From: a virus
Virus record (IMG/VR): IMGVR_UViG_3300045988_161286
Reading direction: 5' to 3' (one strand)
Length of the DNA: 64,000 nt
In this document: positions 9,961-64,000 of the stretch, piece after piece
Numbering within the stretch: the stretch's first letter is position 1
Layout of the letters: the number at the start of each line of letters is the position of its first letter
The notes under the pieces: model-generated
Seen by the model: the letters and a program-made list of their open reading frames with translations, nothing else
Told to the model about the DNA's origin: nothing
The model's database searches: none
Program-made: the position numbers and the translations under genes

Positions 9961-10401
9961 TTGCCAGAAAATAAAGACAATAGTGCGATGAACGCTCATG
10001 AGACTCACGAGCAAATGCTCAAAATGCTACAAGAGGCAGGAGAACAAAATCCGGATTGTCCAGAAGGACAATTTTTACTCAATTGCCTTACGGGTATGAA
10101 CGAGGCACGAAGCAAAGCCAAGGCGAGAGTGGTTGATCCAGTTAGTGTAAAACAAATCAATGGATTGAAGAAACTGTTTGAAGGCATAGATGGGGTTAAT
10201 GTGGATGTAGACATATCTGCATTTCGTGATTGTTTTATGTTTACCGCTGAATCAAGTCATATTATTACGCTTGATGCGGAGCAAATTGCAAATTTTTATC
10301 CGTTATTGGAACACTCCACTAATTTTCAAGCTGGATATGATGAAGTCACAGAAACCCATTGTCTGGAGGTTGATTTTCCGCACTATGTGTACGAGTGGTA
10401 A
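9961..10401 (+). CDS. hypothetical protein (146 aa)
   Basis: TTG start 7 nt after GAGGAAGG. Track ORF. Confidence 0.7.
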   Translation: MPENKDNSAMNAHETHEQMLKMLQEAGEQNPDCPEGQFLLNCLTGMNEARSKAKARVVDPVSVKQINGLKKLFEGIDGVNVDVDISAFRDCFMFTAESSHIITLDAEQIANFYPLLEHSTNFQAGYDEVTETHCLEVDFPHYVYEW

Positions 10402-10733: not shown

Positions 10734-10994
10734 ATGCTAAAGGTTGGAGATAAGGTTAAAATACTTCCAACAATACTGTCAAGCTATCCTAATTTTCCGT
10801 ATGTAGGGGTAGTAGGCAGAGTTTGTGCTATTTACAACGATAATGATTCGATAGCTGTTGAGTTTTCGCATCCTAATGAGTATTTTCATAACTGTGACGG
10901 GAAGTCTGGGCAGTATTCTGGCTGGTATTGTTGTAGGAAAGAGTTGGAATTTATACCTGATGATAATTTGCCAGATATTTGGGAATATATCTAA
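10734..10994 (+). CDS. hypothetical protein, paralog of 17883-18164
   Basis: ATG after AGGAGG. VGDKVKILPTILS.YP.FPYVG.VGRVC ... SGWYC ... LEFIPD.LPDIWEYI is shared with the second copy at high nucleotide identity. Confidence 0.8.
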   Translation: MLKVGDKVKILPTILSSYPNFPYVGVVGRVCAIYNDNDSIAVEFSHPNEYFHNCDGKSGQYSGWYCCRKELEFIPDDNLPDIWEYI

Positions 10995-11597: not shown

Positions 11598-11906
11598 TGT
11601 AACATTTGCTTGCTTTATTAAATAAAGCCGCCTTACTTAAAGTAAGGTGTTAGAAAAGGTTAGAGAGAAGAACGGGATACAGGCTGAAGGCGAGTCGGTG
11701 GTGGACAGCTCTGACACAGGATACCGTCAGGAAACTAAAGCTCTTACACAGAAAAGGACTGTTTCCGAGACCAAACCCAAACGGAAAAAGCACATAAAAA
11801 GATTACTTTAGTACTCGATAAGAGCATAGAACCAAAACTGTTAGCCAGCAAAGAGCTAAATTTACAGATTCTTCGCAAGTTCCATCTTTATTTAAGAAAT
11901 GTTACA
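11598..11906 (+). ncRNA. structured RNA element A (paralog of B and C)
   Basis: 10-bp closing helix TGTAACATTT (11598-11607) / AAATGTTACA (11897-11906). Conserved hairpin CCTTACT-TAA-AGTAAGG (11631-11647) followed by TAGAAAAGGTTAGAG. GC-rich ~290-nt interior with no ORF. Confidence 0.55.
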
Positions 11907-12023
11907 GCACCCCTTTAGATAGGGGTGAGCGGTTACAAAACTACTACCTCCTCGTGGTGTAACTGGGTAATGCTAAAGTAGAAATAAATTAAAGTGCCAT
12001 ACGAGGCAGAAAGGAGTCACAAA

Positions 12024-12410
12024 ATGACTGTAAAAACATTAAACAATGTGATGGTTATTGAAGCCAACTTTTCAATGGAGGAACTTTTTAAAGTTTACAA
12101 ACACAAGCCAGATGTATTGTCATTAAAGGATGATGATGGCAATATGCTTTTCGCTGTAAAGCCAAGCGAACACAGAGAGAGTTTTAGCGATTGCGGAATT
12201 TCTTTTGTAAGTAATTCTTACACAGCGTCAAAGGCATCAATTACAATTCCTCTCCCATCAGAAGCTGCCAACAACACAAAGGTGTGGATTGCAGAAAACT
12301 TTGGTTCAATTCTGACAAATCTTGAACAGATTGAAAGAAATGTATCGGAAGCATGTATTGATATTGATGCAAACATTGCAAAAATTGTCGGCTCAATTGT
12401 AACAGCGTAA
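12024..12410 (+). CDS. hypothetical 128-aa protein, first gene of the Ubl unit
   Basis: ATG 12024 after AAAGGAG. The track start at 11994 is an upstream GTG. It has two Cys (SFSDCGISF, SEACIDID). No motif recognised. Confidence 0.75.
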   Translation: MTVKTLNNVMVIEANFSMEELFKVYKHKPDVLSLKDDDGNMLFAVKPSEHRESFSDCGISFVSNSYTASKASITIPLPSEAANNTKVWIAENFGSILTNLEQIERNVSEACIDIDANIAKIVGSIVTA

Positions 12411-12427
12411 ACAAGGAGGAAATAATA

Positions 12428-12661
12428 ATGAAAAGCATTAAAGTTCAGAACAATCTTAAGTCAAAAACAATCATTGGCAACCCAGACGAAATGACAGTTC
12501 AGCAGGCTTTCAATGAAGCCCAGCTCGAAATGGGTAATGGCATTCTCAATCTTAACGGCGTTGTGGTATCTGCACAGGATGTCAACAGAACGCTGTCTGA
12601 CATTGTTGGCGCAAGAGATACATACATTCTTGCATCAGTTGTCAAAGCCGATTGTGCATAA
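12428..12661 (+). CDS. ThiS/MoaD-like beta-grasp (ubiquitin-like) protein candidate, 77 aa
   Basis: ATG after AAGGAGG. The pattern ILNLNGVVVSAQDVNRTLSDIVGARDTYILASVVKADCA mirrors the ThiS/MoaD C-terminal half (NG.vv ... L.dgD.i.i..v.GG), but it ends KADCA. The call is based on pattern only. Confidence 0.45.
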   Translation: MKSIKVQNNLKSKTIIGNPDEMTVQQAFNEAQLEMGNGILNLNGVVVSAQDVNRTLSDIVGARDTYILASVVKADCA

Positions 12662-12674
12662 TTTGATTTGAAAC

Positions 12675-12704
12675 AAGGGAGAGTACACTCTCCCTTTGGC
12701 ATTT
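12675..12704 (+). terminator. terminator-like hairpin after the Ubl gene
   Basis: AAGGGAGAGT-ac-ACTCTCCCTT followed by TGGCATTT. The same sequence occurs at 25046-25075. Its T-rich tail is also strand a1 of element B. Confidence 0.5.
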
Positions 12705-12994
12705 GCATTGTCGCAAGACTGCTTTACTTAAAGTAAAGTATCAGAAAGGTTAGAAGCAGAGGAGTCACCCGGCACGAGATGCTGCTGGAGGCGACGTGAA
12801 TGAAATGCACGGTGATGAAAACGAGTAGAGGCGACTATCTCTCAAACTCAAGGGTTACAACTGAAAGGAGCTTACGAATCCATGATTTGCCGCTGAAATC
12901 GCCACATCAAAGCTATAATTACATCAAGAATCCCAATGACCAAGCTTCCTGCAGGCGTCTTCTCACTGCTACAATTGTATTTAGAAATGCCAAA
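12695..12994 (+). ncRNA. structured RNA element B, leader of the JAB/E1/RT operon
   Basis: Closing helix TTTGGCATTT (12695-12704) / AAATGCCAAA (12985-12994). GTC-GCAA-GAC tetraloop hairpin. CTTTACT-TAA-AGTAAAG (12722-12738). Inner stem AGCAGAGGAG (12755-12764) / CTTCTcaCTGCT (12959-12970) encloses a GC-rich ~190-nt domain. Confidence 0.55.
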
Positions 12995-13012: not shown

Positions 13013-14296
13013 ATGGATTTAATTACAAATTTACACACACGGAGTTGTTTTGATAGCCGTCTTACATTTGGAGATGATTGCCCTAAGATAATCGAAACAT
13101 TTGTCAAATGTGTTTATGAACCTTATTACACTAAGAACGGTGATTTGCCATCTGTATTTTTTGGTTGTGTTTCCGGCGCACGGGCACCACAGAGAGCCGC
13201 AACAGACAAAGCTGTTTATATATGGTATAACGACATAGAACCCACTATAGAGGGAATTAATAAGAAATTTAACTGTAGTGTGGAATCGTATGAGAATTAT
13301 GATAAGTATTGTGAATCAACCTATAATAAATCAAAAGGATGGGTTGGTGACAATCAGTATATTTTTTGGGTAGATCCGTTTAATAAACAACTTATAGAAT
13401 ACACGATAGCTGTTTTCCTTATTCCACTGTTTGACTTTGTTTGCACAGCAAAAGAGATCAAAAACAAATTCAAACCAATTGTTGATGAAATAAGCCAAGG
13501 TTTAGATGATAAATTGTTCGACTTAGCCGAGAAAATTTCAGAAGAAAAAGGATTATCGAAGGTTGTGTTAAATGCTCAAATTACCGATCTTGCACAATAT
13601 AAAAAGAAACGCAATCTTGATCGACTACACGCAAGGATTAAGGATTATGAATCGGATTATAGACATCATGCAGCATATGTAGCAGAGGTTTACGAAAAGT
13701 TGTTGGATTGCAAAAAACAATTATCACTATACAATGACAATGATAATGATAATGCTGCATTGATAGATATGCTTACAAACAACAGTGCGATTTCTAATGT
13801 GAAAATTAATGGAGGAGACCTTGAGTTTGTAGTATGCAACCCGATTACTCAGTATGATGAAGATGCTTTTGCCGAAATATTAAAATCAGAAAATTCCACT
13901 ATTAATAATATGCCAAGCGTAAGTAAGGATGTTTTATGTTGGATGGTTGATGGCAGAATTGATCTATTAACCGAATGTGGAATCGGTATAAGTCTTGATA
14001 ACAATTCTTTTGATGCTTACGAGACATATATATACGGTTATATGCCTCATCCTCATTTGGCTTTATTTGATTGCTTTGGAGGTTTTAGAATAGATATCGC
14101 AACTGCATTAGCAGAAGGCAATATCTGCTATGCAATACAGCTTATTCTTACTGCGTCACAAAATTTGAATTTTATGGATTCTACGGTGATGCATAGGTTG
14201 GGAGCTCTGCTCAATGAGGCAGACTACTCGTGTATTATGGATAAGGAGTCTGGAGAAGTTATGACAGTAAACGAATGGAACGAAAGGAGAAAATAA
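13013..14296 (+). CDS. hypothetical 427-aa protein (central coiled coil; possible E2-like C-terminus)
   Basis: ATG 7 nt after AAGGAGG. Heptad-like central region. The C-terminal YMPHPHLALFDCFGG (HPx ... C) is only faintly UBC-like. Confidence 0.8.
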   Translation: MDLITNLHTRSCFDSRLTFGDDCPKIIETFVKCVYEPYYTKNGDLPSVFFGCVSGARAPQRAATDKAVYIWYNDIEPTIEGINKKFNCSVESYENYDKYCESTYNKSKGWVGDNQYIFWVDPFNKQLIEYTIAVFLIPLFDFVCTAKEIKNKFKPIVDEISQGLDDKLFDLAEKISEEKGLSKVVLNAQITDLAQYKKKRNLDRLHARIKDYESDYRHHAAYVAEVYEKLLDCKKQLSLYNDNDNDNAALIDMLTNNSAISNVKINGGDLEFVVCNPITQYDEDAFAEILKSENSTINNMPSVSKDVLCWMVDGRIDLLTECGIGISLDNNSFDAYETYIYGYMPHPHLALFDCFGGFRIDIATALAEGNICYAIQLILTASQNLNFMDSTVMHRLGALLNEADYSCIMDKESGEVMTVNEWNERRK

Positions 14297-14297
14297 A

Positions 14298-15113
14298 ATG
14301 CAACTTTTAAAGATACCGACAGATATAGAAACACCTACAATATCTTTCACTCCATTAGCTTTTGCCAAAATGATGATGCTTGTTGAGGTAAATGACAAAG
14401 AGGTGGGGTGGCATGGCACAGTTGAAAGGCAAAACAATAACTTTGTTATTACTGATATCTTTGTATATCCTCAAGTAGTTACTCGAACAACCGTTGAGCC
14501 TTCTCAGGCAGAGTATAACGAATGGCAGACTGAGTTGCCAGATGATATACATAACAGTCTTAGATTTCACGGGCATTCTCATGTAAATATGGGAACATCG
14601 GCATCATCTGTTGATACAAAATTTCAGCAAGACATCGTGAAAATGATTGATAATACTGATTTTTATATCTTTATGATTATAAATAAAAAAGGTGATTTTA
14701 ATATATATCTTTATGATGGTGTGCTTAATTTAGCATATAAGTCTACAAGTAAGGACACTCAGCCTGAGATAACATTAAACACAAATAATATTCAGTCGTT
14801 TGGAAAAATACTTTGTGTTTCACCTGAAGTTTACGACACATTGATGTCTTTCAAGGAAGAATCAAAAGATATGGTTACAGAACCAAAACGAGTATCGTAT
14901 TCGTATTATGAATATCCTTACAACTACGGTAATACGGGTGTAAAAAGCCAGAGTTCTATTGAACTATCTATTGGAGAAATTCAAGATATATTCGGTGTTC
15001 CTTATTTGGACGCCAAAGATGTACATGATGAGTTGAGTAATCTTGTACATAAAGGAGCGATAACTAACGATAGGGATTCATTGATTGAACAGGCAAGTCT
15101 GTATATATATTAA
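14298..15113 (+). CDS. JAB/MPN+ (JAMM) metallopeptidase with an extra C-terminal domain
   Basis: Complete JAMM signature: KEVGWHG (Glu) then H93-S-H95-x7-S103-x2-D106 (HGHSHVNMGTSASSVD, nt 14574-14615). Starts 1 nt after the previous stop. Confidence 0.8.
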   Translation: MQLLKIPTDIETPTISFTPLAFAKMMMLVEVNDKEVGWHGTVERQNNNFVITDIFVYPQVVTRTTVEPSQAEYNEWQTELPDDIHNSLRFHGHSHVNMGTSASSVDTKFQQDIVKMIDNTDFYIFMIINKKGDFNIYLYDGVLNLAYKSTSKDTQPEITLNTNNIQSFGKILCVSPEVYDTLMSFKEESKDMVTEPKRVSYSYYEYPYNYGNTGVKSQSSIELSIGEIQDIFGVPYLDAKDVHDELSNLVHKGAITNDRDSLIEQASLYIY

Positions 15114-15127
15114 GGAGGTCTTACGGA

Positions 15128-15796
15128 ATGGATTTAAGTAAATTAGGAGATATTAACCCATATCAGAAGGAGCTGTCAACCACTATACATATAGTCGGAT
15201 GCGGAAGCGTAGGTAGTACGCAGGCAGAGCTTCTTGCAAGATATGGCTTTTGCAAGTTTAAATTATATGACTTTGATTTCGTTGAAAGTAAAAATCTTTG
15301 CAACCAGATGTTTTTTAATTCTGATTTAAACCACAACAAAGCAGAGTCATTAAAAAACATCTTGCTTTCCGTTAATCCGGATATCGAAGTTCAGGTGTTT
15401 GATAAAGGCTATATTAATCAGCGACTTAACGGAATCGTAATTCTTTGTGCTGACAATATTGATTTGTGTAGAAATATTTGCAAGCAGAATAGACTTAATC
15501 CATACATAAAGGTAATGTTGAATTACCGTACTGCAAGATACGATGCGCAGCACTATGCAGTAGAGTGGAGAGATAAACCAAGTGTGGATAATTTGATTAA
15601 AACAATGAATTTCACACATGAAGAAGCAAAAGCCGAAACTCCAGTGTCAGCATGTGGAGTAGAGATTGGTGAATCTATTGTTGTAAGAGATATTGTACTT
15701 AAAGGTACAACGAATCTGTTTAAATGGATTACCGAAAGAAAATTAAGCCCTTTGATTATATCTTCTCCATATAAATTTGACACGGTAGTAATGTAA
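15128..15796 (+). CDS. ThiF/MoeB/E1-like adenylyltransferase (minimal, 222 aa)
   Basis: IHIVGCGSVGSTQAELLARYG ... KLYDFDFVESKNLCNQ, i.e. a GxGxxG Rossmann motif plus D.D.ve.sNL..Q (nt 15197-15214 for GxGxxG). Confidence 0.75.
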   Translation: MDLSKLGDINPYQKELSTTIHIVGCGSVGSTQAELLARYGFCKFKLYDFDFVESKNLCNQMFFNSDLNHNKAESLKNILLSVNPDIEVQVFDKGYINQRLNGIVILCADNIDLCRNICKQNRLNPYIKVMLNYRTARYDAQHYAVEWRDKPSVDNLIKTMNFTHEEAKAETPVSACGVEIGESIVVRDIVLKGTTNLFKWITERKLSPLIISSPYKFDTVVM

Positions 15797-15809
15797 AGGA
15801 GGGACATGT

Positions 15810-16955
15810 ATGTGCTACTATGTGTGTTTGCCAAAAACCGAATCGAAGCCTAACATTTGGAGTTGGCTTGAAGGTGATATACATTCTCCACAGTGGTTAT
15901 GGGGTACTAAATCTGCGGCAGCCACAGTAACTCGCAGAGTCGATTTTATACCTGCGAGCGCAAAAGACAAATACAATGTCAATTTTATTGTTGGCATATT
16001 GGATGCCTTTAATAAAAAATGGAGTTATCTTGGACAAGAAATTGAAAAACATTATTCTCATTTCTATATTCCAAAAAAGAAATTAGACGAATATGGCAGA
16101 GTTAAATGGAGAGAAATTTGTGCTCCAGATGATGAATTATCTGAAGCATTGAAGGACTTAAAAGGGATTTTCGAGACTGCGGGTGTTTCATTACATCACA
16201 CCAACGCATACGCTTATGTTCGACATAGAACAGCCTCGGATGCAGTTTCCAAGCATCAGTATAACCATAGTCGCTGGTGGATAACAACTGATTTTCAAAA
16301 CTTTTTTGGTAATACTACCAAAGAATTTCTTATGTCTATGATGGCACAAATATTTCCATTTAGTGCAGTTATTGAACGAGATTTTGGAAAAGAGTGTTTA
16401 AGCAGGGCATTGGATTTATGTTTTCTTAATGGGGGCTTGCCACAAGGAACTCCAATCAGTCCAATGCTTACTAATATTATGATGATACCGTTTGACTACA
16501 TAATGACAAAAAAATGCCGTGAAAAAGACTATATATATACTCGATATAGCGATGATATACAAGTTTCACACCGTAGAAAGTTTAATCCAGATGAAGTTCT
16601 TGGATTCATCCATGAGACACTGACTCAAATTCACGCTCCGTTTACAATTGAGAAAGAAAAAACAAAGTTTAAAAGTGGAAATCAGTTCGTATTAGGTGTT
16701 ATGTATAATCAAAATTGCGACATTACAGTCGGTCATAAGAATAAAAAAGAGTTCAAAGCTACATTATTTAATTATATGTGTGATAGGCTAAGCGGTAAAG
16801 TTTGGGAGTTGCCACAACTCCAACAAATGATGGGTAAATATGCATATTACTCAATGATTGAAAAAGAGTATTTTGAAAATGTAATGAAGGAATATTCTCG
16901 TAAATTTAAGCAGGATGTTATGAAATGTATCAAAGCAGACTTGCGTAGATGCTAA
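15810..16955 (+). CDS. reverse transcriptase, retron/UG-like
   Basis: RT motifs: FYIPKKK ... REICAP, AYAYVRHRTASDAVSKH, WWITTDFQNFF, GLPQGTPISPMLTN, YSDD (16545-16556), and FVLGVMYN in place of the retron VTG. No maturase or endonuclease domains. Confidence 0.8.
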   Translation: MCYYVCLPKTESKPNIWSWLEGDIHSPQWLWGTKSAAATVTRRVDFIPASAKDKYNVNFIVGILDAFNKKWSYLGQEIEKHYSHFYIPKKKLDEYGRVKWREICAPDDELSEALKDLKGIFETAGVSLHHTNAYAYVRHRTASDAVSKHQYNHSRWWITTDFQNFFGNTTKEFLMSMMAQIFPFSAVIERDFGKECLSRALDLCFLNGGLPQGTPISPMLTNIMMIPFDYIMTKKCREKDYIYTRYSDDIQVSHRRKFNPDEVLGFIHETLTQIHAPFTIEKEKTKFKSGNQFVLGVMYNQNCDITVGHKNKKEFKATLFNYMCDRLSGKVWELPQLQQMMGKYAYYSMIEKEYFENVMKEYSRKFKQDVMKCIKADLRRC

Positions 16956-17036: not shown

Positions 17037-17111
17037 TGAGCAGTCGCCAAGCGGTTAAGGCACTGGACTTTGACTCCAGTATCGTGGGTTCAATTCCCAC
17101 CTGCTCAGCCA
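17037..17111 (+). tRNA. tRNA-Gln (anticodon UUG)
   Basis: Hand-folded cloverleaf: acceptor TGAGCAG/CTGCTCA with U1-A72 and G73, anticodon loop CTTTGAC, T-loop TTCAATT, encoded CCA. Confidence 0.8.
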
Positions 17112-17113
17112 AA

Positions 17114-17268
17114 CGGTATTGTGTAGCTTTATAACCTTGCGGTTCAAAATAAAAATCTACCGTCATGGTAGAAAGACTTTATACTGATCAGTTACTCAGT
17201 TTGGCATTGAATGGAACGGCGGTGTCCCTTGACTGTTGTTCCGTCAGCCTTCAATCTACACAATACCG
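17114..17268 (+). other. inter-tRNA spacer closed by a 13-bp perfect inverted repeat
   Basis: CGGTATTGTGTAG (17114-17126) / CTACACAATACCG (17256-17268). Internal hairpins include CTACC-gtcat-GGTAG. Confidence 0.5.
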
Positions 17269-17273
17269 GATAT

Positions 17274-17349
17274 GACACAGTAGTCCAATGGCAGAGACAG
17301 CAGACTTAAAATCTGTAAAGTGAGAGTTCAAATCTCTTCTGTGTCACCA
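17274..17349 (+). tRNA. class-I tRNA with anticodon UAA (Leu codon UUA) and no long variable arm
   Basis: Acceptor GACACAG/CTGTGTC, A73, CCA. Anticodon stem GCAGA/TCTGT, loop CTTAAAA. 5-nt variable loop. T-arm GAGAG-TTCAAAT-CTCTT. Confidence 0.7.
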
Positions 17350-17352
17350 TAT

Positions 17353-17429
17353 GGACTGTTAGCTCAACTGGTTAGAGCGGCAAACTCATAATTTGCGGGT
17401 ACAGGGTTCGACTCCCTGACAGTCCACCA
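17353..17429 (+). tRNA. tRNA with anticodon CAU (elongator Met or Ile2)
   Basis: Acceptor GGACTGT/ACAGTCC, D-arm GCTC ... GAGC, anticodon loop CTCATAA, T-loop TTCGACT, A73, CCA. Confidence 0.8.
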
Positions 17430-17911: not shown

Positions 17912-18164
17912 AGTTGGAGATAAGGTTAAAATACTTCCAACAATACTATCAGACTATCCTGATTTTCCGTATGTAGGAATAGTAGGCAGAGTGTGTGACA
18001 TGGCAGACGATAGTGATCCGATAGCTGTTGAGTTTTCACATCCTCACAGTTACTTGCACGACTGTGGGGGAATAGTTAAGCAACATTCTGGCTGGTATTG
18101 CTTTAGGAGCTATTTGGAATTTATACCTGATAATTTGCCAGATATTTGGGAGTATATTAAATAA
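17883..18164 (+). CDS. hypothetical protein, paralog of 10734-10994
   Basis: In-frame ATG 17883. The sequence is near-identical to the first copy over the first ~90 nt. Confidence 0.8.
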   Translation: MSVEKNQLFKVGDKVKILPTILSDYPDFPYVGIVGRVCDMADDSDPIAVEFSHPHSYLHDCGGIVKQHSGWYCFRSYLEFIPDNLPDIWEYIK

Positions 18165-18246
18165 AAGTGAGGTTTTATTGGAATTTAACTGATGAAAACC
18201 AAGAATAAATTCAATATTTAAACAAGATAGTATAGAGGTGCAAAAA

Positions 18247-18630
18247 ATGATTGATTGCTCGAAAACTAAAGACTACTTTTCTGAAAAGAGAAGGATGATA
18301 AAAAAACATAAATATATATGTAAACTTAATTGTGATGACTGCCCTTTGGGCTGGTCAAAGAATGGCAAAGGTATTTCGTGTGAAACTCTTGAAAAGTCCT
18401 ACCCTGAAAAAGCAATCGAAATAGTTCAAAAGTGGTCGGATAAACATCCGCAGAAGACTTATTTGAGCGAGCTTTTGAAAGCCTTTCCGAATGCTCAGCT
18501 CAATGATTCTGGAATGCCTAAAGGGATGTGCCCACATGAGTTAGGACTGAAAGATATAGATTGCGAAAAAACAGACAATGCGTGCGTCAAATGTTGGAAT
18601 CAGCCTATTGAGGACGGTGAAGAGCGATGA
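18247..18630 (+). CDS. Cys-rich hypothetical protein, paralog of 47507-47890
   Basis: ATG 18247 after AGAGGTG. The copies share SYPEKAI.IVQ.WSD.HPQ.TYLSE ... C..CW. Confidence 0.8.
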   Translation: MIDCSKTKDYFSEKRRMIKKHKYICKLNCDDCPLGWSKNGKGISCETLEKSYPEKAIEIVQKWSDKHPQKTYLSELLKAFPNAQLNDSGMPKGMCPHELGLKDIDCEKTDNACVKCWNQPIEDGEER

Positions 18631-24673: not shown

Positions 24674-25024
24674 ATGAAAATTTATGCTATTACAAAGGGC
24701 GATTACTCTGATTATCATATCTGCCAACTGACAACTGATTATGAAAAAGCTAAAAGATATAAAGAGGCTTATTCCGATAAGTGGTATGAGGCTTGTATTG
24801 AAACATACGAAGATAATGAAAACGATGAACAGATGTTGTATTGGCAATATAGCCTTGGCACTGACACGCTCACATTAAGTGAAACAATTGATACTGAAAA
24901 AATATGGACGCATCAAAATGGCAGTATTTATAGGGTAGATGTTCGTGCTTCGGATAAAATGCACGCCTTTAAAAAAGTATTTGATATGCTGGCAAAGTAT
25001 AAAGCCGAACAGGCTGGATTGTAA
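24674..25024 (+). CDS. hypothetical protein (116 aa)
   Basis: ATG after AGAGGTG. Confidence 0.75.
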   Translation: MKIYAITKGDYSDYHICQLTTDYEKAKRYKEAYSDKWYEACIETYEDNENDEQMLYWQYSLGTDTLTLSETIDTEKIWTHQNGSIYRVDVRASDKMHAFKKVFDMLAKYKAEQAGL

Positions 25025-25064
25025 ATACATATAAGAATTTGAAACAAGGGAGAGTACACTCTCC

Positions 25065-25188
25065 CTTTGGCATTTGCATTGTCGAAAGACTGCTTTACTT
25101 AAAGTAAAGTATTAGAAAGGTTAAAAATTATGACTGGAAATATGATTATTTTGAAGAGGCAAAATAATCATATTTAGAAATGCCAAAG
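25065..25188 (+). ncRNA. structured RNA element C (minimal paralog of A/B)
   Basis: Closing helix CTTTGGCATTT (25065-25075) / AAATGCCAAAG (25178-25188). GTC-GAAA-GAC hairpin. CTTTACT-TAA-AGTAAAG (25093-25109). 15-bp perfect hairpin AAATATGATTATTTT (25138-25152) / AAAATAATCATATTT (25161-25175). Confidence 0.55.
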
Positions 25189-63925: not shown

Positions 63926-64000
63926 AAGCCAAAAGTAGGCACTCCGACTAACTGCCTTCTAAGCAGTAGGTCAGGGGTTCGAGTCCCTTTTGGCGCGCCA
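63926..64000 (+). tRNA. tRNA-Arg(UCU)-like sequence; the 3' two-thirds is canonical and the 5' D-arm region aberrant (possible att core or pseudo-tRNA)
   Basis: Anticodon arm ACTGC-CTTCTAA-GCAGT, T-arm AGGGG-TTCGAGT-CCCTT, then TTGGCGC-G-CCA at the window end. The 5' strand pairs at only 5 of 7 acceptor positions. The D-loop has no GG. Confidence 0.4.

What the first reader, a model, noticed from the sequence alone, without database searches (positions are those of the whole stretch)
11598..12994. Paralogous structured RNA elements A and B with a covarying closing helix, retron-ncRNA-like architecture
Elements A (11598-11906) and B (12695-12994) are ~300 nt, GC-richer than the genome, and ORF-free. 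Each is closed by a 10-bp helix: A is TGTAACATTT/AAATGTTACA and B is TTTGGCATTT/AAATGCCAAA. The two helices differ by three fully compensatory base-pair changes (G-C to U-A, and A-U to G-C twice) around a conserved CATTT/AAATG core. Both contain a 7-bp hairpin with a TAA loop, again with a compensatory change (CCTTACT..AGTAAGG versus CTTTACT..AGTAAAG), followed by a conserved AGAAA(A)GGTTAGA. B also has a GNRA hairpin (GTC-GCAA-GAC) and an inner 10-bp stem enclosing a ~190-nt domain. The layout is inverted repeats a1/a2, small 5' hairpins and a large 3' stem domain, sitting directly upstream of an operon that ends in a retron-like RT. This is what a retron msr-msd ncRNA looks like. Alternatives: a new cis-regulatory leader (antitermination or riboregulation), or hairpin promoters for the phage-encoded RNAP, as N4 vRNAP uses 5-7 bp stems with 3-nt loops.
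Basis: seen in the sequence. Interest (0 to 1): 0.85.

Follow-up and report, generated by a model that had tools for sequence, protein, structure and literature searches.

The report
Phage retron-like RNA elements, multi-copy
Elements A and B, plus a third copy C, belong to a large undescribed family of about 300-nt RNA elements that flank a retron-type reverse transcriptase in gut phages; they have a strictly conserved retron-like frame around a fast-evolving interior, which suggests a phage-borne, multi-template variant of the retron.

Summary
A (11598-11906), B (12695-12994) and C (25065-25188) share a frame. It consists of a 10-11 bp closing helix, a G right after the 5' arm, AG right before the 3' arm, two 5' hairpins and a conserved single-stranded motif.

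Related phage contigs make the case. A model of the 5' module alone finds 135 copies, all on the RT strand. Their closing helices, G and AG recur without being required by the search. Hairpin 2 covaries strongly. In 92 of 140 distinct RT loci, an element ends 2-38 nt before the RT start codon.

The RT's closest characterised relatives are all retron RTs. It sits in a conserved JAB-E1-RT cassette.

The frame is nearly invariant. The interior of about 220 nt is non-coding, has no conserved fold, diverges 2-4 times faster than synonymous sites, and swaps between loci.

The retron-ncRNA reading is therefore largely supported, with four departures:
- several elements per RT;
- long interiors with little structure instead of an msd hairpin;
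- no element adjacent to the RT in this window;
- no evidence yet for cDNA.

The "inner stem" of B is not supported. Rfam and the searched literature have no such family. A minimal HDV-like ribozyme follows A.

The parts
11598..11906 (+). Element A. a1 is at 11598-11607 and the putative branching G at 11608. Hairpin 1 is 11612-11628 and hairpin 2 is 11629-11649. The conserved motif TTAGAAAAGGTTAGAGAG follows from 11650. The fast-evolving interior runs about 11665-11880. The conserved 3' module ends in AAG, and a2 is 11897-11906.
   Evidence: In 21 close relatives the 5' module diverges 1.5%, the 3' module plus ribozyme 0.7%, and the interior 19%. Changes in a2 are wobble-compatible only (GC to GU, UA to UG), which fits + strand RNA pairing.
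11908..11927 (+). Hairpin CACCCC-TTTAGATA-GGGGTG between element A and the ribozyme.
   Evidence: L086 and L122 have an analogous hairpin followed by a ribozyme.
11931..11983 (+). Probable minimal HDV-like (theta-like) self-cleaving ribozyme. P1 is GGUUAC(A) with (U)GUAACU and a G.U pair at its base. P2 is CUACU with AGUAG, and P3 is ACC with GGU. L3 is UCCUCGU. CUGGG and GCUAA (catalytic C) are present. Cleavage is predicted between 11930 and 11931.
   Evidence: The Rfam HDV-F-prausnitzii model gives 26.3 bits, E = 0.025, below its gathering score of 44. The site is 98-100% identical in close relatives. My descriptor finds the same core with different, complementary P1 and P2 in L086 and L122, at the same position upstream of the first gene of the module.
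12675..12696 (+). Terminator-like hairpin AAGGGAGAGT-AC-ACTCTCCCTT that abuts a1 of B. An identical one precedes C at about 25046-25067.
12695..12994 (+). Element B. a1 is at 12695-12704 and the G at 12705. Hairpin 1 is GTC-GCAA-GAC at 12710-12719 and hairpin 2 is 12720-12740. The motif ATCAGAAAGGTTAGAAG follows. The interior runs about 12757-12970. The 3' module ends in TATTTAG, and a2 is 12985-12994. The RBS and start codon of the 427-aa gene follow 6 nt later.
   Evidence: (model hit, E = 0.0057).
25065..25188 (+). Element C, a short form with the same frame as B and an 11-bp closing helix. Its interior is about 46 nt and holds a 16-bp perfect hairpin (25138-25175) right before TAG-a2. In some relatives this locus carries a 300-nt B-like element instead.
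12024..12661 (+). Two small genes, of 128 aa and 77 aa, between A and B. Both are of unknown function and are syntenic in distant relatives.
13013..15796 (+). Three genes downstream of B. The first encodes a 427-aa protein of unknown function (13013-14296). The second encodes a JAB/JAMM peptidase with an intact HSHx7Sx2D motif (14298-15113). The third encodes a ThiF/E1-like adenylyltransferase (15128-15796).
   Evidence: E1 is found next to the RT in 150 of 161 loci and JAB in 138 of 161.
15810..16955 (+). Retron-type reverse transcriptase of 381 aa with a YSDD catalytic box.
   Evidence: PADLOC RT_II-A gives 5.5e-41. NCBIfam retron St85 RT gives 2.1e-45, 155 bits, below its cut-off of 235. 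The top PDB profile hits are retron Ec83, Ec78, Ec67, Kva2 and Ec86 RTs. The family has more than 2,791 homologues.

Best explanation
A, B and C are paralogous copies of the cognate non-coding RNA of the phage's retron-type reverse transcriptase, that is, msr-msd-like elements.

Proposed mechanism:
1. Each element is transcribed on the + strand as part of a polycistronic RNA.
2. The 5' and 3' arms pair. This places a conserved unpaired G (after a1) opposite a conserved G (before a2).
3. The invariant 5' module is the part the RT recognises. It consists of hairpin 1, hairpin 2 and the single-stranded GUAACAAnUUG / AGAAAGGUUAG motif.
4. The RT then primes from the 2'-OH of the G and copies the interior, from the AG next to a2 back toward the 5' module. 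The product would be a single-stranded DNA of about 200 nt.
5. The interior sequence is free to vary. Only its length (total span about 250-360 nt) and its U-poor, GC-enriched composition are kept.
6. One RT therefore serves several templates in one genome.
7. Element A's 3' end is set by a self-cleaving HDV-like ribozyme.

Shown by computation: the frame, its covariation, its strand, its tight linkage to the RT, and the contrast between a constrained frame and an unconstrained interior.

Inferred from retron biology: RT binding, priming at the G, and cDNA synthesis.

Unknown: the purpose of the product. Candidates are a superinfection-exclusion or defence module working with the linked JAB and E1 proteins, or a counter-defence decoy.
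For: The RT is of retron type:
- Its best matches in three independent libraries are retron RTs.
- The invariant H and G of retron regions X and Y are kept (PMC7736814).

The frame is real and extends well beyond this window:
- Frames of the form a1-G...AG-a2 number 173 on the RT strand against 39 on the opposite strand in 53 diverse loci.
- A covariance model built only from the 5' module gives 135 hits at E <= 0.01, all on the RT strand.
- Starting from those hits, an inverted repeat of at least 8 nt closes the element in 99 of 123 cases, against 20 of 123 in a reversed control.
- In the same test, G follows a1 in 92 of 109 and AG precedes a2 in 81 of 109. Neither was required. The median span is 298 nt.
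- Hairpin 2 is 96.4% paired against 67% in shuffles. Its covariation score is 0.836 against 0.239 (0 of 500 shuffles reach it), and slid controls reach at most 0.133.

The layout matches a retron:
- In 92 of 140 distinct RT loci an element ends 2-38 nt before the RT start codon. In 34 one starts within 53 nt after the stop codon.
- B lies at the head of an operon ordered ncRNA, three genes, RT, which recalls the ncRNA-effector-RT order of type II retrons.

A partner specific to each genome is implied:
- Copies within one genome share the hairpin 2 plus motif sequence at 81% identity, against 56% between genomes.
- This similarity tracks RT similarity with Spearman 0.61.

Selection acts on the frame:
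- The frame diverges 0.7-1.7%, against 4-8% at four-fold degenerate (synonymous third-codon) sites of neighbouring genes.
- In a second clade the frame is 100% identical while RT four-fold sites differ by 12.9%.

The pairing is at the RNA level on the + strand:
- The only changes seen in a2 create G.U pairs.
Against: - No cDNA or transcript data exist.
- The interiors of A and B lack the long, stable msd hairpin typical of retrons. RNAalifold finds nothing there, the inner stem is not supported, and the median folding z-score is -0.84.
- Several elements per RT, up to 8 in L114, has no precedent among retrons that I know of.
- In this window no element adjoins the RT. B is 2.8 kb upstream. A and C precede other genes.
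- The RT lacks the exact NAxxH and VTG motifs. It has DAVxxH and NLG instead. It also scores below NCBIfam's retron cut-off.
- Rfam's models, including retron msr, give no match even at E <= 10.
- The correlation between RT and element similarity is not corrected for shared ancestry.
Confidence: 0.6

Rival explanations
1. The elements are cis-acting mRNA leader or insulator elements of this phage group, acting in RNA processing, stability or translational control. The closing helix next to the ribosome-binding site, together with a protein bound to hairpin 2, would regulate the downstream gene. No reverse transcription would be involved.
For: - In B and C, a2 ends 6-25 nt upstream of a Shine-Dalgarno sequence and start codon.
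- Elements precede different genes. C precedes a 137-aa gene, and in L010 and L013 the B element precedes another gene.
- They lie inside polycistronic units, next to terminator-like hairpins and a ribozyme.
- The interior shows no sequence constraint.
Against: - Elements occur in tandem with no gene between them: three after the RT in L029 and eight copies in L114.
- They cluster on both sides of the RT in 105 of 140 loci.
- The conserved unpaired G and AG at the helix junction match the retron priming geometry and have no obvious role in a leader.
- An interior of 200-250 nt kept in length and composition is an expensive spacer for a phage.
Confidence: 0.15
2. The elements are non-autonomous mobile or retro-mobile cassettes, like MITEs or SINEs. 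The arms would be terminal inverted repeats, or the frames would be recombination or retro-homing sites. The RT or a recombinase would spread and exchange them within and between phage genomes.
For: - Copy number varies from 1 to 8.
- The C locus holds either a short or a long element.
- Interior alleles move between the B and C loci. L020's B-locus interior is 93% identical to the C-locus interior of L019 and L011, but only 58-62% identical to other B-locus interiors.
- Interiors diverge 2-4 times faster than four-fold degenerate sites.
Against: - The arms differ between copies within one genome, so a single transposase could not recognise them all.
- No target-site duplications are seen.
- Hairpin 2 covariation and the G.U-only changes point to selection on an RNA fold.
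- Strand bias is 135 to 0.
- Exchange between loci is explained equally well by ordinary homologous recombination across the 60-100 nt identical frames.
Confidence: 0.1
3. Hairpin 2 would be a hairpin promoter for a phage-encoded N4-like RNA polymerase, and the remaining features would be incidental.
For: The stem has 7-9 bp with a 3-nt loop, is conserved across A, B and C, and lies upstream of genes.
Against: - No RNA polymerase was found among the largest ORFs of the window. These encode Pol III alpha, a primase-helicase, NrdD, a methylase, an integrase and a capsid protein.
- This reading does not explain the closing helix, the G/AG junction, the conserved span of about 300 nt or the linkage to the RT.
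- Loop length and sequence vary between phages, from 3 to 5 nt.
Confidence: 0.03
4. The elements would be part of a diversity-generating retroelement, with template and variable repeats and adenine-specific mutagenesis.
For: An RT is present and there are hypervariable segments.
Against: - Substitutions show no bias toward adenine. Per-site rates are 0.86 for A, 0.98 for C, 1.0 for G and 0.96 for T.
- The interior has no second copy in the window.
- The variable segment is non-coding.
- The RT matches retron RTs, not DGR RTs.
Confidence: 0.01

Closest known systems
Bacterial retrons: msr-msd ncRNA plus a retron RT. The nearest RTs are types I-A and II-A (Ec83, Ec78, St85 family).
   Same: - The RT belongs to the retron lineage.
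- The ncRNA is closed by terminal inverted repeats a1/a2, with a G directly after a1 and an opposing G before a2.
- Small hairpins lie in the 5' (msr-like) part.
- In most relatives the element ends about 25 nt upstream of the RT gene.
- In this window the order is ncRNA, accessory genes, RT (PMC7736814).
   Different: - The system is carried by phages of about 100 kb that infect gut Clostridia.
- There are 2-8 elements per RT, on both sides of it or dispersed.
- Elements are about 300 nt long, and the interior is long, weakly structured, fast-evolving and exchangeable, not an msd hairpin.
- The accessory genes are a JAB peptidase and an E1-like enzyme, which are not among the effector types listed for retrons in PADLOC or Mestre et al..
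- The RT has DAVxxH and NLG in place of NAxxH and VTG.
- msDNA has not been shown.
DRT2 (UG2) defence reverse transcriptase with its ncRNA of about 280 nt, which supports rolling-circle reverse transcription of a 'neo' gene.
   Same: An RT is paired with a neighbouring ncRNA of about 300 nt. Conserved structured parts of that RNA flank a template stretch with little structure. This comparison rests on my own knowledge of the Tang and Wilkinson 2024 papers, and on PMC12483538 for context.
   Different: - The RT matches Drt2 only weakly (1.4e-15, against 2e-45 for a retron RT).
- No conserved stop-free frame exists. B and the second clade show none. A has one in 11 of 19 variants, but with 1-nt indels and no 3-periodicity.
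- Element lengths are not multiples of three.
Diversity-generating retroelements.
   Same: They are phage-borne, include an RT, and have a hypervariable segment next to invariant sequence.
   Different: There is no template/variable repeat pair, no adenine-specific changes and no target gene, and the RT is of a different clade.
Minimal HDV-like 'theta' ribozymes of gut Caudoviricetes (Kienbeck et al. 2024, PMC10879173). This comparison concerns the ribozyme after A.
   Same: It has the nested double-pseudoknot core with a minimal P4, occurs in a gut phage, and sits so that cleavage defines the 3' end of an upstream non-coding RNA.
   Different: It lies downstream of a retron-like element and a hairpin, not a tRNA, and it heads the mRNA of the RT module. 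It scores below Rfam's gathering threshold. Cleavage has not been tested.

Membership tests
Retron (RT plus msr-msd ncRNA) | The RT belongs to the retron/retron-like clade. | tested here: met
   The best PADLOC hits are RT_II-A, I-A and I-B (5.5e-41 to 1e-35). The best NCBIfam hit is retron St85 RT at 2.1e-45, though at 155 bits it is below the cut-off of 235. The top 12 PDB profile hits are all retron RTs.
Retron (RT plus msr-msd ncRNA) | The RT carries the region X NAxxH motif and the region Y VTG triplet (PMC7736814). | tested here: inconclusive
   In the alignment to the Ec83 RT, NAKIH aligns with AVKRH and VTG aligns with NLG. The H and the G, which the paper names as the most conserved residues, are invariant in the family. 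The other positions differ.
Retron (RT plus msr-msd ncRNA) | The ends of the ncRNA pair through inverted repeats a1/a2. | tested here: met
   The helix is closed in 99 of 123 elements against 20 of 123 in the control, and helix sequences differ between elements.
Retron (RT plus msr-msd ncRNA) | A branching G lies directly 3' of a1, with an opposing G next to a2. | tested here: met
   G follows a1 in 92 of 109 elements and AG precedes a2 in 81 of 109, with neither required by the search. Both are present in A, B and C. The 2'-5' branch itself cannot be tested here.
Retron (RT plus msr-msd ncRNA) | The msr region contains stem-loops. | tested here: met
   All 8 pairs of hairpin 2 covary. Hairpin 1 is present in every element but varies in sequence and length.
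Retron (RT plus msr-msd ncRNA) | The msd region forms a long stable stem-loop. | tested here: not met
   A and B have no conserved interior helix. The median interior z-score is -0.84, and 7 of 40 are below -2. The feature is met only in short forms such as C and L029:11264-11446.
Retron (RT plus msr-msd ncRNA) | The ncRNA gene is contiguous with the RT gene, or lies in the same operon. | tested here: met
   The two are contiguous in 92 of 140 relatives. In this window B heads the operon that ends with the RT, 2.8 kb away, while A and C lie farther off.
Retron (RT plus msr-msd ncRNA) | The system produces msDNA, a branched RNA-DNA molecule. | not testable with these tools
   This needs nucleic-acid extraction from infected or expressing cells.
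Diversity-generating retroelement | A template repeat and a variable repeat that differ at adenines, with a target gene. | tested here: not met
HDV-like ribozyme (for 11931-11983) | P1, P1.1, P2 and P3 form a nested double pseudoknot with a G.U pair at the cleavage site and a catalytic C in J4/2. | tested here: inconclusive
   All helices and core nucleotides can be drawn. The Rfam score of 26.3 is below the gathering score of 44. Two distant loci share the core with different complementary P1 and P2. Cleavage has not been tested.
Any Rfam 15 family | A score at or above the family's gathering threshold. | tested here: not met
   The window and 10 diverse loci match only tRNA and tmRNA. Nothing credible appears at E <= 10.

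The most novel reading that the evidence does not exclude
The framed interiors would be written as well as read. The RT would copy an interior into cDNA, and that cDNA would then convert the same or another framed locus. The phage would thus carry a natural, multiplexed 'self-editing' retron array.

This would explain three observations:
- variation begins and ends sharply at the presumed stop and start of reverse transcription;
- interiors diverge 2-4 times faster than synonymous sites in two independent clades;
- interior alleles hop between the B and C loci.

It would be a diversification mechanism distinct from DGRs, because it shows no adenine bias and has no protein target.
Probability: 0.1. 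Interest if true: 0.9.

Novelty: new variant of a known kind. Interest (0 to 1): 0.78.

Why it matters
Retrons are known as bacterial anti-phage systems with one RT, one ncRNA and an effector. They are also the basis of in-cell DNA-writing tools.

Here a retron-lineage RT with more than 2,700 homologues sits in gut phages of Clostridia. It is always next to an E1-like enzyme and a JAB peptidase, and it is flanked by two to eight cognate-looking RNAs. The frames of these RNAs are frozen while their interiors of about 200 nt vary freely.

If the RT copies these interiors, three things follow:
- phages use retron chemistry for their own ends, whether defence against rival phages or counter-defence;
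- one RT naturally accepts many long, unstructured templates, which is the property retron engineers want;
- a link between ubiquitin-like conjugation enzymes and reverse transcription becomes open to testing.

The family also adds an RNA class that is absent from Rfam, and it gives minimal HDV-like ribozymes a new context.

Tried and rejected
- Rfam gave no family for the elements. I ran it at gathering thresholds on the window and on 10 diverse loci, and at E <= 10 on two regions.
- Megablast and blastn of the region against GenBank phages found nothing. tblastn of the RT found one unannotated faecal phage at 38% identity.
- Coding potential of the interiors is rejected. No ORF is conserved, 1-nt indels are frequent, and substitutions show no 3-periodicity. 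The stop-free + frame in 11 of 19 A variants is put down to depletion of UA and UG.
- The DGR hypothesis is rejected.
- No sigma-70 promoter lies inside the 5' modules.
- B's inner stem has no covariation support.
- Whole-element and interior folding stability is not unusual.
- The interiors match nothing else in the window.
- 'Hypervariability' needs tempering. The phage group is mosaic, with other divergent segments. The interiors run at 2-4 times the synonymous rate, not orders of magnitude faster. Part of the divergence reflects old alleles exchanged between loci.
- Pfam, PHROGs, PADLOC and NCBIfam found nothing for the 427-aa, 128-aa and 77-aa proteins. The homologue search for the 427-aa protein returned only close relatives, so I did not attempt a structure prediction.
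- Four literature searches found no description of this family.
Full report
**Observation**

The arms TGTAACATTT/AAATGTTACA (11598-11607 with 11897-11906) and TTTGGCATTT/AAATGCCAAA (12695-12704 with 12985-12994) are perfectly complementary. Both elements carry a hairpin with a TAA loop that differs by one compensatory pair. It is followed by AGAAA(A)GGTTAGA.

A third copy, C, lies at 25065-25188. It has B's arms and 5' module but only about 46 nt of interior, which forms a 16-bp hairpin.

B and C are each preceded by the same terminator-like hairpin and followed by a ribosome-binding site. A is followed by a hairpin and then a probable ribozyme.

Taken alone, the evidence inside the window is thin:
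- Inverted repeats of this size are not rare.
- The whole-element folds are no more stable than shuffled sequence.
- Rfam reports only tRNAs in the window.

**Context**

B heads an operon with four genes:
- a 427-aa protein of unknown function;
- a JAB peptidase with an intact JAMM motif;
- a ThiF/E1-like adenylyltransferase;
- a 381-aa reverse transcriptase.

The RT's best matches in PADLOC, NCBIfam and a PDB profile search are all retron RTs. Group II intron and DRT matches are far weaker.

The window is part of a phage of about 100 kb. It encodes Pol III alpha, a primase-helicase, NrdD, a cytosine methylase, an integrase and a capsid protein. I found no RNA polymerase.

**Close relatives**

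Twenty-seven IMG/VR contigs carry an RT that is 97-100% identical.

In these contigs the 5' module of about 70 nt and the 3' module of about 25 nt of A and B are almost invariant. The 117 nt after A are 98-100% identical. The interiors are only 73-90% identical, with every type of substitution and many 1-nt indels.

Measured against the window:

| Region | Divergence |
|---|---|
| Four-fold degenerate sites of neighbouring genes | median 4-8% (one gene 14%) |
| A frame | 0.7-1.5% |
| A interior | 19% |
| B interior | 15% |

Further properties of the interiors:
- They show no adenine bias.
- They keep no conserved ORF and show no codon periodicity.
- RNAalifold finds no conserved structure in them, and B's 'inner stem' is not supported.
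- The few changes in A's 3' arm create only G.U pairs, which points to RNA pairing on the + strand.

The phage group is mosaic, and other segments are just as divergent. The interiors are therefore unconstrained and fast, not uniquely hypermutated.

Interior alleles also move between the B and C loci. L020's B-locus interior is 93% identical to the C-locus interior of L019 and L011, but about 60% identical to other B-locus interiors.

**Distant relatives**

The RT family has more than 2,791 homologues. They come mostly from phage contigs of about 100 kb and from MAGs of gut Clostridia. The RT is nearly always preceded by the JAB and E1 genes: E1 is present in 150 of 161 loci.

The same kind of element recurs around these RTs.
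- In L029 (RT 39% identical), four elements with unrelated closing helices of 9-12 bp sit directly before and after the RT. Three of them span 296-301 nt.
- In 53 diverse loci, frames defined as a perfect helix of at least 8 bp, with G after a1 and AG before a2, number 173 on the RT strand and 39 on the other strand.
- A shared plan is visible by eye: a1, G, YAU, variable hairpin 1, GC, hairpin 2, GUAACAAnUUG, a purine-rich stretch, a GC-rich variable interior, YAURUAG, a2.

**A test that does not presuppose the closing helix**

I built a covariance model from the 5' module alone, without the arms. It gave 135 hits at E <= 0.01 in 1.38 Mb, all on the RT strand, with up to eight per locus.

Starting from these hits:
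- An inverted repeat of at least 8 nt links the region just upstream to a site 20-400 nt downstream in 99 of 123 cases. In a reversed-sequence control the figure is 20 of 123.
- The base after the 5' arm is G in 92 of 109 elements.
- The two bases before the 3' arm are AG in 81 of 109.
- The median span is 298 nt.

None of these features was required by the search.

Hairpin 2 is 96.4% paired, against 67% in shuffles. All eight of its pairs show double changes, and its covariation score far exceeds both controls.

In 140 distinct RT loci, 92 have an element ending 2-38 nt before the RT start codon, most often 25-26 nt. Thirty-four have one starting within 53 nt after the stop codon.

Copies within one genome share their hairpin 2 and motif sequence (81% identity), while different genomes do not (56%). 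This fits one trans-acting partner per genome.

In a second clade of 11 contigs the pattern repeats. The first 60 and last 25 nt of the upstream element are identical in all. The interior differs by 17-42%, while RT four-fold sites differ by 12.9%.

**Interpretation**

The following features are the defining layout of a retron msr-msd RNA as summarised by Mestre et al. 2020 (PMC7736814):
- terminal inverted repeats;
- two opposing G residues at the inner end of the helix;
- small 5' hairpins;
- a position immediately upstream of a retron-lineage RT.

I therefore take A, B and C to be cognate RNAs of this RT. I think it likely that the RT primes on the G after a1 and copies the interior.

The departures are substantial:
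- There are several elements per RT.
- Interiors of about 200 nt have little structure and no sequence constraint. Only span and a U-poor, GC-enriched composition are kept.
- The partner proteins are JAB and E1.
- The RT motifs are non-canonical: DAVxxH and NLG, with only the H and the G conserved.
- In this window's lineage the elements have moved away from the RT.

No data here show a transcript or a cDNA.

**Rivals**

- A purely cis-regulatory leader fits the position next to ribosome-binding sites. It does not fit tandem arrays without genes, the clustering around the RT, or the G/AG junction.
- A mobile-cassette reading fits the variable copy number and the exchange between loci. It does not fit arms that differ within one genome, the absence of target duplications, or the RNA-level covariation. 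Ordinary recombination across the identical frames explains the exchange.
- N4-type hairpin promoters and a DGR are rejected.

**The ribozyme**

Positions 11931-11983 can be drawn as a minimal HDV-like ribozyme. The Rfam score is 26.3 bits, below the gathering score of 44.

A descriptor search finds the same core with different, complementary P1 and P2 helices in L086 and L122. Each follows a terminator-like hairpin and heads the first gene of the same module.

Minimal HDV-like ribozymes are known in gut phages, mostly next to tRNAs (PMC10879173). Here cleavage would free element A, with a 3' hairpin, from the downstream mRNA.

**Novelty**

No Rfam family matches the elements. No annotated phage in GenBank carries them. 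Four full-text searches found no description of a phage retron-type RT with multiple ncRNAs or with JAB and E1 partners. The nearest mention is a S. aureus jumbo-phage preprint that notes a retron-like RT next to a 1.2-kb non-coding region.

I class the finding as a new variant of a known kind.

Noticed in passing
window 11931-11983 (also L086:1410, L122:569): A probable minimal HDV-like self-cleaving ribozyme sits directly after a hairpin and before the first gene of the RT module. The core is conserved, and P1 and P2 differ but stay complementary in two distant phages.
   Followed up: partly
window 14298-16955, and 150 of 161 related loci: A JAB peptidase (intact JAMM motif HSHVNMGTSASSVD), an E1/ThiF-like enzyme and the RT form a conserved cassette. 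They are usually preceded by proteins of about 130, 77 and 430-540 aa of unknown function. The 77-aa protein could be a ubiquitin-like partner, but I did not test this.
   Followed up: partly
L091:4739-5605, L115:4711-5517: Many relatives have an extra DUF6273 protein between E1 and the element upstream of the RT. The window lacks both that gene and any element adjacent to the RT.
   Followed up: no
B locus (window 12695-12994) and C locus (window 25065-25188) in L003, L011, L019, L020: Interior alleles fall into deep classes that are about 60% identical, and they are found at either locus in different close relatives. Cassettes are therefore exchanged between the two framed loci.
   Followed up: partly
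window 11665-11880 and its homologues (alignment A4): The interior of A is depleted in UA (204 observed against 296 expected) and UG (103 against 160). In 11 of 19 variants, though not in the window's own copy, one + strand frame is stop-free over the whole interior, without a start codon or codon periodicity. B does not show this.
   Followed up: partly
window 11614-11627 and 11886-11899: The conserved 3' module of A (CTTTATTTAAGAAA) is 93% complementary to hairpin 1 of A. An alternative pairing between the template's 3' end and hairpin 1 is therefore possible.
   Followed up: no
window 17037-17429 and 63928-63995: Three tRNA genes (Gln-TTG, Leu-TAA, Met-CAT) start 80 nt after the RT. A fourth weak Rfam tRNA hit (32.5 bits) at 63928-63995 is not called by ARAGORN. 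tRNA arrays, and in L086 a tmRNA, also lie a few kb from the RT in relatives.
   Followed up: no
window 10200-10300, 10800-10900, 18000-18600, 24700-25000: Other segments, all coding, are as divergent among the close relatives (17-29%) as the element interiors. This shows strong mosaicism in this phage group. The segment at 24700-25000 lies just upstream of C.
   Followed up: no
L010 and L013, downstream of their B elements: In two close relatives the B element is followed by a different gene start than the 427-aa gene. This suggests that gene cassettes are swapped at the frame.
   Followed up: no
L030-L062 (RT about 37% identical): This GC-rich clade has elements with a different 5' module: a hairpin with loop CGGUCAUAUCC followed by GAAUUUGU. 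My model does not detect it, but the closing helices with G and CAG at the junction are the same. The family is therefore broader than the model.
   Followed up: partly
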